From the NCBI GenBank assembly GCA_964016885.1, contig OZ024758.1, positions 12,214,001 to 12,278,000 on the forward strand: DNA of 64,000 bases, written 5' to 3'. The notes beneath the pieces were generated by a model that was not told the DNA's origin, did no database searches, and saw only the letters and a list, made by a program, of their open reading frames with translations. This stretch comes from Eledone cirrhosa. Lineage: Eukaryota. Positions 20,290-62,943 of this stretch are shown here, piece after piece (positions within the stretch are counted from its first letter, which is position 1; every line of letters starts with the position of its first letter). The position numbers and the translations under genes were made by a program.

Positions 20290-20360
20290 TGTTTTATCTG
20301 ATGAAAACACAAATATTATTGCATGATGATATTTGTTTTTGAAATGCGCATAATAAAATA
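20290..20360 (+). ncRNA. Complete minimal type-I hammerhead ribozyme
   Basis: tgttttat-CTGATGA-aaacacaaatattat../..atgatatttgttttt-GAA-ATGCGCAT-A-ataaaata; predicted cleavage after 20352. Confidence 0.85.
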
Positions 20361-20409
20361 CATGGAACTCTTTTAACCATCTTTTGTTCTTATATATTAT
20401 ATATATATA

Positions 20410-21330
20410 TAAATTAATAAAAATAATTAATAAAAACAAAGAAACAGTTCCTTATATTAAAAAATTCATCATTTTTACGATCGTTTCTAGGATATATATG
20501 TGTGTGTTGGTATGTATATCATATAGATCTATGTAAAGATATTACAAACTAAGAGAGGGAATATACATACCTACACATATATATGCTGTATCAGAAATAA
20601 GTTTGGTAGATTTATCTACATATATATATATATATATATATATATATATATATATATATATATATATATATATATATATATGTATATATATATATGTATG
20701 TATATATATATATATATATATATATATATATATGTATATATGTATGTATATATATATATATATATATGTAAAATATTTAAAAAATAATGAATAAAACAAT
20801 GAAACAGTTCCTTATATTAAACAAAAAAAGTTCATTATTTAACGATCGTTTCTAGGATATATATGTGTTAGAATTGCCATGCATATTCAACAGATCTATG
20901 TACAAAATTATACAAAATTATACAAACTATCAAGATTAAATATACATACCAAACACACATATATGCCGTCTTCAAAAATAAGATTATTTCTGAAGACGGC
21001 ATATATGTGTGTTTGGTATGTATATTTAATCTTGATAGTTTGTATAATTTTGTATAATTTTGTACATAGATCTGTTGAATATGCATGCCAATTCTAACAC
21101 ATATATATCCTAGAAACGATCGTTAAATAATGAACTTTTTTTGTTTAATATAAGGAACTGTTTCATTGTTTTATTCATTATTTTTTTAATATTTTATCTT
21201 GACTCTGTATTCCGTTTATCTTTCACCGAAAGTGATTTTTCATTGCATCTCTTCTTTCCATGATATCCGGACTACATTGAGTTCTTCATACGGATTGGAC
21301 ACTACCGTAAACTCTTGGTAGATTTATCTA
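20410..21330. mobile_element. Family C element: tandem plus inverted pLTR-like array with long-stem-II hammerheads
   Basis: Diverged copy 20410-20620, then ~205-bp inverted arms 20769-21196; terminus ttggtagatttatctaca(ta)n at 20603 and 21316. Confidence 0.8.
20983..21131 (+). ncRNA. Type-I hammerhead with ~115-nt stem II
   Basis: attattt-CTGAAGA-cggcatatatgtgtgtt...aacacatatatatccta-GAA-ACGATCGT-T-aaataat. Confidence 0.75.
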
Positions 21331-22579
21331 CATATATATATGTATATATATATGTATATATGTATGTATATATATATATATATATATATATGTATATATG
21401 TATGTATATATATATATATATATATATATATGTATATATGTATGTATATATATATATATATATATATATATATATGTATATATGTATGTATATATATATA
21501 TATATATATATATATGTATATATGTATGTATGTATATATATATATATATATATATATATATATATATATATATATATATGTATATATGTATATATATATA
21601 TATATATATATGTATATATGTATATATATATATATATATATATGTATATATGTATATATATATATATATATATATATATATATAGTAATAATAATAAAAT
21701 TGAAGACTAAAATCCAATATGTATGTATATATGTATGTATATATATATATATATATATATATATATATATATATATGTATGTATATATATATGTGTGTAT
21801 GGATGTATGTATGTAGTGAATGACAGACGATATATAGGCTACATTCAATATATATCCTGTCTCAGGCAAACAATATGACCTTGAATATATGACTATAATT
21901 GAGATATTAGTGCCAGTCTCCAAATTATATATGTGTATGTGTGTGTTTGTGTATGCATATATATATATATGTGTGTGTGTGTGTGTGTGTGTGTGTGTGT
22001 GTGTGTGTGTGTGTGTAGTGTCACAGTACACTAGTGGTGTGAAACCATTACTGATATTTAAGATGGAGACAACATAGATATATCGTCATGTTGAAAGGAA
22101 ATATGAATGTATTGATATTCCCAATAGAGATCTCATAATTACGTCAATCCAGCTAATATATACACGTTATATATATCTATATATATATATATATATATAT
22201 ATATATATATATATATATATATATACTCATATATATATGTATATATATATATATACTCACATATATATATATATATATATAAATATATATATATACTCAC
22301 ATATAAATATATATATATATGCACACACACATAATTATATATGTGTATAAACACACACATAAAATATATATATATATATATATATATATATATATATACT
22401 CATGTATGTATATATGTCAACCACACGCAATGTACCGAACGGAATACTCTATACAAGTCAATAGGAGGGTTGGGGCACTTTTTAAAGAGACAAATTTCAA
22501 AATGTATTTAAGTTTAAATTAAATTACGACTAGATTTTGAGGAAACTTTTAAAGAACATTTAAAGAATATCATGGTAAC

Positions 22580-22795
22580 CAATCCCATCCAAGCCAAACC
22601 AAGACCTTCTTACTTCTGTTAGAGGGTCCCCTCCCTGGTTGACCTCCACCGCGGTGGAATAGCAGTATCGGTAGAGACTCAGAGAAGATTTTATGGGTAA
22701 AACCCAGCCGGTAGTAAACCCAGGGGTAAACCCCGATCAAGAGAGTTTGACAACATCCATGAGCTCGTCTAGTCTCACTTGAGGATCCAACCGGA
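22580..22795. mobile_element. Two short RTE LINE 3'-end remnants
   Basis: cccctccctggttgacctccacc identical to 41774-41796 (minus-strand element); 22680-22795 plus strand reads KPRGKPRS..FDNIHEL. Confidence 0.55.
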
Positions 22796-22839
22796 TCAAT
22801 TAGATTGGGTTCTTTCTAACCGTACCCATTGTATATCCA

Positions 22840-23282
22840 GAAGTATATAATTAGAGAAATTAAATTAAATATTAGATTATTCCCAAAGTATATATTTAGA
22901 AATATTAAATTAAATATTAGATTATTCCCAAAGTATATTGTTAGAAATATTAAATTAAATATTAGATTATTCCCAAAGTATATAGTTAGAAATATTAAAT
23001 TAAATATTAGATTATTCCCAAAGTATATAGTTAGAAATATTAAATTAAATATTAGATTATTCCCAAAGTATATTGTTAGAAATATTAAATTAAATATTAG
23101 ATTATTCCCAAAGTATATAGTTAGAAATATTAAATTAAATATTAGATTATTCCCAAAGTATATAGTTAGAAATATTAAATTAAATATTAGATTATTCCCA
23201 AAGTATATAGTTAGAAATATTAAATTAAATATTAGATTATTCCCAAAGTATATAGTTAGAAATATTAAATTAGATATTAGAA
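22840..23282. repeat. 45-bp minisatellite, ~9.5 copies
   Basis: Unit ttagaaatattaaattaaatattagattattcccaaagtatatag. Confidence 0.95.
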
Positions 23283-61800: not shown

Positions 61801-62037
61801 TGGCTCGCGTTTTTGTTTTGTATTTTGTGTATATGTAGGAGCATGTGTGTCTCTGTGTACATGTATGTGCGTGTACATGCATGTGTGTGTATGTGTATGT
61901 GTTCTTGTACGTGTTTGTGTTAGAGATACTTAATACTTAAGTATACCTAATTTGTAAGTGGGTACCAGAGAGTGACTGAGTCTTATAATTAGAGGAAGCA
62001 GTGAAAACTAATTTTCGCTTTTTCTATTATTGGTGCA

Positions 62038-62360
62038 GAGGTGACTTGGCAGAGTTGTTAGAACGTCAGATAGAGTACTTTGTAGTATTGGTTCCAGCTC
62101 TCTGCTCTAAGTTCAAATCCTACCGAGGTCAACTTTGCCTTTCATCCTTTCGAGGTTGATATAAAAAGTACCAGTTTAATACTGGGGCCGATTCTTCCTC
62201 TATATCTCTTTCTCACTTCCATTCTCTCACTCTCTCTAAGCTTCTTTGGAAGAAATCTGCTGCACTCAAGCCTGGAGAGGTTTAAAATAACGAAGGAACG
62301 CCGTATGCCAATATAGTGCCCCTAACATTCCTCAGAGGTTATGGGGGCATATTATACCCT
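62038..62360 (+). mobile_element. SINE family 1 core with alternative 3' tail
   Basis: gttcaaatcctaccgaggtcaactttgcctttcatcc followed by the ctatatctctttctcact...ggaagaaatctgctg tail. Confidence 0.75.
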
Positions 62361-62756
62361 TATTGGTGAGTTTCTGTCAACGATGTGAGTACAGGTATTG
62401 CCGAGCTATTAAGAATTTCGCAATGCACACACATAATTTCAAGTTCGACATCCACTGTGCAACTTCCTAGACATGTGTCTTCTAACATAGACACAAGTAA
62501 ACCACCGCCACGTGAGTAGAATTTGGTTGACTGCAATTATGTTGACTGCAAAAAAGAAAATATGGAGTTTTCTCGCTTATTTCTCTAAAGGAAAATGTTA
62601 GCTTTATTTCAACCTAATGTGGTTATATCCGATGTAAACTACATAGAAAATAATCAAAGACACGCTTTTATAAATCAAATATGCGAACAATGAGTTTTGA
62701 TACCTAAATTAGGTTTATATATATATATAAAGAATATATATTTATAAAACCATATT

Positions 62757-62817
62757 TATTTTATTATACGTATTTCAAGGGTACTAATATTTAAGTACGC
62801 TTTCGTCAGATAAAATA
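62757..62817 (-). ncRNA. Complete minimal type-I hammerhead
   Basis: Reverse complement of the 62885-62943 motif. Confidence 0.85.
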
Positions 62818-62884
62818 TATTTAGTGTTAAGATAGTGACATATCTTCATGTGAACTTAATGGTATAAGCCCAATGAAGATAGTC

Positions 62885-62943
62885 ATTTTATCTGACGAAA
62901 GCGTACTTAAATATTAGTACCCTTGAAATACGTATAATAAAAT
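62885..62943 (+). ncRNA. Complete minimal type-I hammerhead
   Basis: attttat-CTGACGA-aagcgtact..agtaccctt-GAA-ATACGTAT-A-ataaaat; predicted cleavage after 62936. Confidence 0.85.

What the first reader, a model, noticed from the sequence alone, without database searches (positions are those of the whole stretch)
20290..62943. Covariation keeps stem III a self-complementary octamer
Seen: related motifs with the same stem I (ttttat/ataaaa) have stem III ATATATAT (25461, 52419), ATACGTAT (62885) and ATGCGCAT (20290); family C has ACGATCGT. Core position 7 varies (CTGAAGA / CTGACGA / CTGATGA) while the invariant core bases stay fixed. Stem II changes sequence and length but keeps pairing. Established: N7 is the free core position, and palindromic short stem III lets minimal HHRs cleave as dimers. 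Inference: selection for functional, probably dimeric, self-cleavage.
Basis: partly seen in the sequence, partly recalled or inferred. Interest (0 to 1): 0.75.

Follow-up and report, generated by a model that had tools for sequence, protein, structure and literature searches.

The report
Dimer-type hammerheads of Penelope-like retroelements
These short motifs are broken-off ends of very abundant jumping genes and carry a known type of small hammerhead RNA that likely cuts itself only when two copies pair; copy counts across the genome back the pairing idea, but the commonest version pairs through G-U wobbles rather than being a perfect palindrome.

Summary
Observation confirmed. The window holds seven type I hammerhead motifs with a short stem III. 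All are terminal-repeat fragments (80-97% identity) of Penelope-like elements whose full-length copies, with RT and GIY-YIG ORFs bearing Hydra-clade motifs, lie elsewhere in the genome. Genome-wide, the central pair of the ATA-NN-TAT octamer is TG in 11,026 copies, TA 8,792, CG 697, CA 78, and the other 12 combinations 337. So the commonest form is not a strict palindrome: it self-pairs only through tandem U-G wobbles, while its DNA mirror image (CA) stays at decay level. That favours selection on an RNA duplex over a DNA palindrome, CpG decay or A-to-I editing. On inner branches the core never changes (N7 changes 8 times), and stem II changes keep pairing (25/32 versus 29/93 at tips). Selection acted on source elements; the window copies are solo or on opposite strands. 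Palindromic stem III and dimer cleavage in these elements are published (Cervera 2014; Perreault 2011), and the scan noted it before in this genome (e1-8664523). Cleavage was not tested. Real, but a new member of a known kind.

The parts
20123..20233 (-). Inverted copy of the family B 'tail' (sequence downstream of the hammerhead), next to (TA)n
   Evidence: 97% to the full-length B unit L233
20290..20360 (+). Family B type I hammerhead: core 20298-20304, stem II 20305-20340, stem III ATGCGCAT 20344-20351, predicted cut after A20352; inside pLTR fragment 20229-20405
   Evidence: 95-96% to the pLTRs of L233; 18,073 pattern matches genome-wide
20391..20615 (-). Diverged 5'-truncated family C fragment: has GAAACGATCGTA but no CUGANGA strand
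   Evidence: 73-75% to L229
20703..20981 (-). Inverted twin of the family C motif; C3 of the core is replaced (TTGAAGA) near the inversion joint
   Evidence: 92% to L229
20982..21132 (+). Family C type I hammerhead: core 20990-20996, 116-nt stem II, stem III ACGATCGT 21116-21123, predicted cut after U21124; fragment runs on to about 21425
   Evidence: 89-93% to L229; 5,368 pattern matches genome-wide
25266..25328 (-). Inverted twin of the 25461 motif (family A, ATATATAT)
25461..25523 (+). Family A hammerhead, CTGAAGA, stem III ATATATAT 25507-25514, predicted cut after A25515; the element ends about 50 nt later in (TA)n
   Evidence: 85-89% to the pLTRs of L236
52419..52479 (+). Family A hammerhead, solo and decayed (stem II predicted at only -1.3 kcal/mol)
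   Evidence: 74-80% to L236
62757..62817 (-). Inverted twin of the 62884 motif (ATACGTAT)
62884..62944 (+). Family A, CG sublineage: CTGACGA, stem III ATACGTAT 62928-62935, predicted cut after A62936
   Evidence: 80-82% to L236
11183..11267 (-). Family B fragment truncated inside stem II (3' half of the hammerhead only)

Best explanation
The motifs are type I hammerheads in the terminal repeats (pLTRs) of several Penelope-like retroelement families, and their short stem III likely works only when two copies pair into a double hammerhead. Shown: each motif lies in a pLTR; full-length elements carry two same-sense motifs 3.7-7.1 kb apart around an RT/GIY-YIG ORF; source lineages keep the catalytic core and accept at the centre of stem III only U-A, U-G or C-G. 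Predicted: one motif folds stems I and II but cannot close stem III, and two octamers pair antiparallel over 8 bp. Inferred: in a read-through transcript (or between two RNAs, perhaps held by the element's protein) the dimer cuts slowly after H17 and trims precursor RNA. The cut must be conditional, because nearly all genomic copies were made from RNA uncut at the downstream motif. The window's copies are dead insertion remnants in (TA)n.
For: Full-length units: L229 (830-codon open frame, motifs 7,081 nt apart), L233 (808 codons, 3,709 nt), L236 (broken ORF, 3,857 nt); window motifs match their pLTRs. Whole-genome counts for YTGAA-ATA-NN-TAT-AATAAAATA: TG 11,026, TA 8,792, CG 697, CA 78, purine-N 150, pyrimidine-pyrimidine 187; 98.0% of 20,930 can pair; backward controls 0. 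Predicted octamer duplex -3.2 (UA), -2.2 (UG), -6.5 (CG), +2.6 (CA), -10.5 (B), -10.0 (C) kcal/mol; monomer hairpins +2.4 to +4.7. On a tree built without stem III, 24 CA rows need 19 changes (scattered), while TG dominates or shares four starred clades. Among 249 copies fetched by their 3' side, six core columns show 0 changes on branches with 3 or more leaves and 21 on smaller ones, N7 shows 8 and 12; stem II changes keep pairing in 25 of 32 inner and 29 of 93 small-branch cases, Fisher p 7e-6. Both central pairs can form in 15 of 17 clusters with 2 or more members, chance about 0.15 each. Dimer activity of such motifs, low in vitro, is reported in PMC4209133.
Against: No cleavage data here. 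Copy counts are not independent events, and related families make the binomial p values optimistic. One starred clade of 4 CA rows (3 insertions) exists, and the parsimony count for the central pair placed changes to CA and AA on inner branches; I read this as an artefact of having fetched 30 of 78 CA and 30 of 150 purine-N copies on purpose, but did not prove it. Other Watson-Crick centres (AT, GC) are not used, so mutational access (transitions) also shapes the pattern. For family C, closing stem III as a monomer costs nothing in the model (-41.0 versus -40.8). The first stem II pair is A-U or G-U (C-A in family C), not the usual G-C. 5' ends at the predicted cut are at best weakly enriched (230 versus 124 matches at a control site). 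In an anole PLE, ribozyme mutants did not affect insertion in vitro and no RNA-seq reads ended at the site (PMC11167929, passages).
Confidence: 0.8

Rival explanations
1. The motif cleaves as a monomer with a 2-bp stem III and a 4-nt loop, helped by the element's protein; the palindrome is incidental.
For: Protein-assisted cleavage of a PLE hammerhead from a single-motif RNA is reported (PMC11167929, passages). Family C monomer closure is energy-neutral in the model. AGGACT/AGAACT and 9-nt stems exist.
Against: A monomer leaves the four central bases unpaired, yet they can pair in 98% of 20,930 copies and in 15 of 17 clusters; pair 3-6 switches A-U to G-C in one step on the tree.
Confidence: 0.08
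2. The core is kept catalytic, but the main job of stem III pairing is to hold two element RNAs, or both ends of one RNA, together for template switching; cutting is secondary.
For: Copies nearly always include sequence on both sides of the cut site, and 3' ends fall in two groups about 50 and 130 nt (B) or 60 and 200 nt (C) past it. Tandem and inverted insertions are common. Ribozyme mutants insert normally in vitro (PMC11167929).
Against: No change in six core columns on inner branches points to selection on catalysis; Naiad elements make the same tandem and inverted insertions without a canonical hammerhead (PMC8557442, passages).
Confidence: 0.07
3. The octamer is a DNA-level palindrome (protein site or cruciform), or the pattern comes from neutral processes: founder effects, CpG decay, TA microsatellite, or A-to-I editing of element RNA.
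For: TA, TG, CG and CA are linked by transitions; the genome is rich in (TA)n; A-to-G on the sense strand is what editing would give (recalled).
Against: A DNA palindrome or CpG decay treats TG and CA alike; observed 11,026 to 78. Single-leaf changes in paired columns are symmetric (A>G 26, T>C 23); only inner branches are skewed (24 to 9, p 0.008), and unpaired columns are not. GC-rich palindromes in other families cannot come from (TA)n.
Confidence: 0.05

Closest known systems
Minimal and palindromic-helix-III type I hammerheads in pLTRs of metazoan Penelope-like elements (Cervera and De la Pena 2014, PMC4209133; parts 1-2 of 4 of the text read)
   Same: Type I, in pLTRs, short palindromic helix III, long helix II, mostly solo copies, opposite-strand pairs 100-700 bp apart, many families with compensatory changes, dimer model.
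   Different: Here the first stem II pair is A-U or G-U rather than the conserved G10.1-C11.1; families A-C lack the extra base after A9; stem II has a fixed C-C or C-U mismatch at position 4; family C has a 101-116 nt stem II.
Short-stem-III hammerheads that cleave as dimers (Lunse, Weinberg, Breaker, RNA Biol 14:1499; paper not held, seen only as title and as cited in passages of PMC6765202 and PMC6466107); palindromic stem/loop III of repeat hammerheads (Perreault 2011, PMC3088659, legend of Fig. S8)
   Different: I could not see whether Lunse et al. already report G-U centres or these families.
Hydra clade of C-terminal-EN Penelope-like elements (Craig et al. 2021, PMC8557442; section 11, passages, supplement part 2 and search hits read)
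   Same: DKT, CxCX5C linker, CxxC and CxH around E and N, (TA)n targets, canonical hammerhead. Their File S2 lists an octopus member and a TA/TG pair of stem III centres (Penelope-1_SK acag-ta-ctgt, Penelope-2_SK acag-tg-ctgt).
   Different: Units here are 3.7-7.1 kb, not under 3 kb; the listed octopus element has a different hammerhead (acca-a-tggt); RWK reads RWR or RWI in P0001 and P0002.

Membership tests
Type I hammerhead ribozyme | Core CUGANGA ... GAAA ... UH with H not G | tested here: met
   7 of 7 window motifs; core unchanged on inner branches among 249 copies
Type I hammerhead ribozyme | Stems I and II form, open ends in stem I | tested here: met
   Folding; 95.5% of 200 cells paired, 8 pairs with two-sided change, above all slid controls (10 hand-picked rows); the 52419 copy is decayed
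Type I hammerhead ribozyme | Match to an Rfam hammerhead model at gathering score | tested here: not met
   0 matches in the window; not run at E-value threshold. A curated-model miss, not a failure of the core or stems
Type I hammerhead ribozyme | Self-cleavage after H17 | not testable with these tools
   Only an indirect footprint test, inconclusive
Short-stem-III (dimer-type) PLE hammerhead | Stem III too weak as a monomer, self-complementary as a dimer | tested here: met
   prediction; counts; family C borderline
Short-stem-III (dimer-type) PLE hammerhead | Located in the pLTRs of a PLE, two same-sense copies in full-length elements | tested here: met
   L229, L231, L232, L233, L236; no ORF in the window itself (tblastn)
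Short-stem-III (dimer-type) PLE hammerhead | Cleaves as a dimer, not as a monomer | not testable with these tools
   Bench test needed
Hydra-clade PLE | Single ORF with RT and C-terminal GIY-YIG endonuclease | tested here: met
   Motifs read by eye in P0001 and P0002 (YRDD; IVY..SYIG or IYE..TYFG); 322 homologues at E<=1e-10. Pfam gave no significant hit
Hydra-clade PLE | DKT motif, CxCX5C linker, CxxC and CxH around E and N | tested here: met
   SDKT, CNCRNKANC or CNCPVKNKC, CRLC..CNH or CNLC..CLH against section 11 of PMC8557442
Hydra-clade PLE | RWK motif near the N terminus | tested here: inconclusive
   RWR in P0001, RWI in P0002; RWK in a related fragment in L028
Hydra-clade PLE | No CCHH motif in the endonuclease | tested here: inconclusive
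   P0002 has one cysteine in the GIY-YIG core, P0001 has two; judged by eye only
Hydra-clade PLE | Insertion into (TA)n | tested here: met
Hydra-clade PLE | Placement in the Hydra clade by RT phylogeny | not tested
   No tree with named reference elements was built

The most novel reading that the evidence does not exclude
These elements tune a protein-assisted double hammerhead: stem III walks between U-A, tandem U-G and C-G to set dimer strength, and a C-C or C-U mismatch at the 4th pair of stem II, shared by families A, B, C and a fourth family with a different stem I, is an undescribed tertiary or protein contact. The tens of thousands of copies would then be a natural mutational scan of double-hammerhead requirements, including a young family with a 116-nt stem II and a C-A first pair.
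Probability: 0.25. Interest if true: 0.5.

Novelty: new member of a known kind. Interest (0 to 1): 0.27.

Why it matters
The kind of element and the dimer idea are known. What this genome adds is a clean comparative test: the one purine-pyrimidine centre that cannot pair as RNA (C-A) is the one that did not spread, while its DNA mirror image (U-G) is the commonest form. That separates RNA pairing from a DNA palindrome without a bench. Young, intact elements (L229, L233) are ready substrates for the open question of what PLE hammerheads do in vivo.

Tried and rejected
Rfam scan: nothing at gathering score. The repeat finder was swamped by (TA)n. Pfam and PDB sequence searches did not name the ORFs. 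No RNA holder listed for L229:1150-4300; no reads were laid. Cleavage footprint: 230 family B matches have a base other than A just before the cut product, against 124 at a site 7 nt further on, among about 18,000 copies. Of the 30 loci read (29 distinct), 14 kept the hammerhead upstream (point change or loss of ATA) and 15 were scored as joints, two of them with partial hammerhead sequence, and 3-4 as fold-backs centred at the site. The control loci could not be cut out, so the excess cannot be judged. Two of 7 family B alignments that cover the motif region and run toward the ORF start at 0 and +5 from the cut, one of them selected by the search: anecdotal. Parsimony on the central stem III pair was spoiled by my own oversampling of rare variants and is not used as support. 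DNA palindrome, CpG decay and A-to-I editing were considered and are disfavoured. A strict 'palindromic octamer' rule is rejected. The Lunse paper could not be read; its text and supplements may already hold the G-U centres or the stem II mismatch.

Full report
1. Observation. The four cited motifs are present as written. A wider scan finds seven complete type I hammerhead motifs in the window: family B at 20298 (+), family C at 20990 (+, 116-nt stem II), family A at 25469 (+) and 25320 (-), 52427 (+), 62892 (+) and 62809 (-). Three partial copies lie at 11183-11267, 20391-20615 and 20703-20981. All seven stem III octamers are perfect palindromes, but they come from only five insertions, since two are inverted twins. 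Rfam finds nothing at gathering score. A scan that asks only for the core, an A...U stem III of 2-12 nt and stems I and II found 94 motifs in 1.054 Mb of coordinate-picked stretches (the window, 22 stretches near it and 77 elsewhere), 0 in reversed DNA and 4 in five shuffles; 63 were Watson-Crick self-complementary, 12 with G-U, 7 odd in length and 12 not self-pairing. The sample is not random; it suggests of the order of 100,000 motifs or more in the 3.0-Gb genome.

2. What they are. The window is G000:C19:12214001-12278000 of an AT-rich, microsatellite-rich genome. A cephalopod-like host is my inference; the best named homologue of the ORF is from Argonauta. Flank-anchored patterns match 2,591 (one family A branch), 18,073 (B) and 5,368 (C) places, with 0 backward controls. 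By eye, 90 of the first 100 B rows and 98 of the first 100 C rows keep their octamer. Same-sense pairs a few kb apart enclose one ORF: L229 (family C, 830 codons, unit 7,081 nt), L233 (B, 808 codons, 3,709 nt), L236 (A with TG, broken ORF, 3,857 nt). P0001 and P0002 are 46% identical over 488 residues and carry RT and C-terminal GIY-YIG motifs, DKT, a CxCX5C linker and CxxC/CxH, which Craig et al. give for the Hydra clade. Pfam and PDB did not name them, so the clade rests on motifs read by eye. The window motifs match these pLTRs at 74-97%, and the window has no ORF. Insertion in (TA)n, inverted 5'-truncated twins and two classes of 3' end are the published PLE insertion pattern (PMC8557442 and PMC11167929, passages).

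3. Is stem III kept self-complementary? For an octamer, pairs 3-6 and 4-5 cannot form in one strand, so they test the dimer. Whole-genome counts in one fixed context cover all 16 centres: TG 11,026, TA 8,792, CG 697, CA 78, eight purine-first centres 150, four pyrimidine-pyrimidine centres 187. The commonest form, ATATGTAT, is absent from the window but present in both flanks. It is not a palindrome. As RNA it self-pairs through tandem U-G wobbles (predicted -2.2 kcal/mol, against -3.2 for UA, -6.5 for CG and +2.6 for CA; monomer hairpin +4.7). TG and CA are mirror images in DNA, so a DNA palindrome or CpG decay would give like numbers; the ratio is 141 to 1. The 78 CA copies are of the same order as single transversion classes. 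On a tree of 176 motifs built without stem III (bootstrap not fully settled), 24 CA rows need 19 changes and 43 TG rows 12; TG fills or shares four starred clades, and a family with another stem I also has both CG and TG. Against this: one starred group of 4 CA rows from 3 insertions, and inner-branch changes to CA and AA in a second tree, which I put down to having fetched rare variants on purpose. Across clusters with 2 or more members, 15 of 17 have two pairing central pairs, chance about 0.15 each; the exceptions are AGGACT/AGAACT and the 9-mer ACCACTGGT. The clusters are not independent, so p (about 1e-7 for 10 of 12 distinct types) is optimistic.

4. Core and stem II. Of 280 copies found by their 3' side, 31 lacked a 5' core within two mismatches and were dropped; 249 were kept. 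On branches with 3 or more leaves, core positions 3-6, 8 and 9 change 0 times (21 times on smaller branches), N7 8 times, and three of four flank columns 9-10 times (the fourth twice). Stem II changes from a paired state keep pairing in 25 of 32 inner cases and 29 of 93 small-branch cases (p 7e-6). Ten hand-picked rows give 95.5% paired cells and 8 pairs with two-sided change. The 4th position of stem II is a C-C, C-U or U-C mismatch in 237 of 249 copies; by eye the same C-C is in family C and in the family with stem I ctgc/gcag. A-to-I editing as the source of A-to-G changes is not supported: single-leaf changes in paired columns are 26 A>G to 23 T>C, inner ones 24 to 9.

5. Mechanism. Shown: location, tandem layout in full-length elements, and selection on core, stems and dimer-only pairs in source lineages. 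Predicted: stems I and II fold, stem III stays open in one motif (closing it costs 2-3 kcal/mol in A and B, about 0 in C). Inferred: two motifs, 3.7-7.1 kb apart in a read-through RNA or on two RNAs, pair their octamers and cut after H17, probably slowly and with protein help, as reported for other PLEs (PMC4209133; PMC11167929). Almost all copies span the cut site, so the template was uncut there; a search for 5' ends at the site was inconclusive. The window's twins are on opposite strands and would form a long hairpin, not a double hammerhead.

6. Known and new. Palindromic helix III, compensatory changes, opposite-strand pairs and weak dimer cleavage are in Cervera and De la Pena 2014 (parts 1-2 of 4 read). 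Perreault 2011 shows palindromic stem/loop III for repeat hammerheads (legend of Fig. S8). Two reviews cite Lunse et al. for dimer cleavage; that paper is not held. Craig 2021 lists Hydra-clade hammerheads, with an octopus member and a TA/TG pair of centres. Seven searches (listings and abstracts only, except the papers named) showed no count of TG against CA and no mention of the stem II mismatch, but the most relevant paper was not readable. The scan has noted such motifs before in this genome and others.

7. Verdict. A real feature, rightly read in outline, of a known kind. The wobble asymmetry is a good added test of the dimer model. Interest 0.27.

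Noticed in passing
L229:4185-8300 (G000:C1:49998001-50008000); also L231, L238, L239: Family C elements carry about 4 kb of (TA)n/(TG)n-rich sequence after the ORF as part of the unit (96.7% over 5,680 nt between L229 and L238), so this young family likely spreads microsatellite DNA as it moves.
   Followed up: partly
window 20997-21112; stem II of families A, B, C: Fixed C-C or C-U mismatch at the 4th pair of stem II (237 of 249 copies); family C has a 101-116 nt stem II that opens with a C-A mismatch.
   Followed up: partly
L278:456-3396: Tandem array of seven hammerheads (stem III ACTAGT) with a period of about 482-492 nt, like a non-LTR retrozyme or short PLE derivative; here neighbours could form dimers in cis.
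   Followed up: no
L038:7429-7633, L138, L254, L257, L131: A family whose stem III is AGGACT or AGAACT, giving tandem G-A or A-A mismatches in a dimer; an exception to the palindrome rule.
   Followed up: no
L340, L348, L353, L354: Inverted duplications centred at the first base after the predicted family B cut site; could be fold-back of cDNA at the end of a cleaved RNA, or deletion at a short microhomology.
   Followed up: partly
L018, L026, L247; window 20100-21430: Different PLE families are nested in the same (TA)n tracts; in the window a family B and two family C insertions lie within 1.3 kb.
   Followed up: no
window 22841-23281, 28736-29231, 37605-37858: Minisatellites of 45, 31 and 30 nt period.
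   Followed up: no
window 2004-2441 (-): A 146-codon frame that looks by eye like the C-terminal part of a LINE reverse transcriptase; label recalled, not tested.
   Followed up: no
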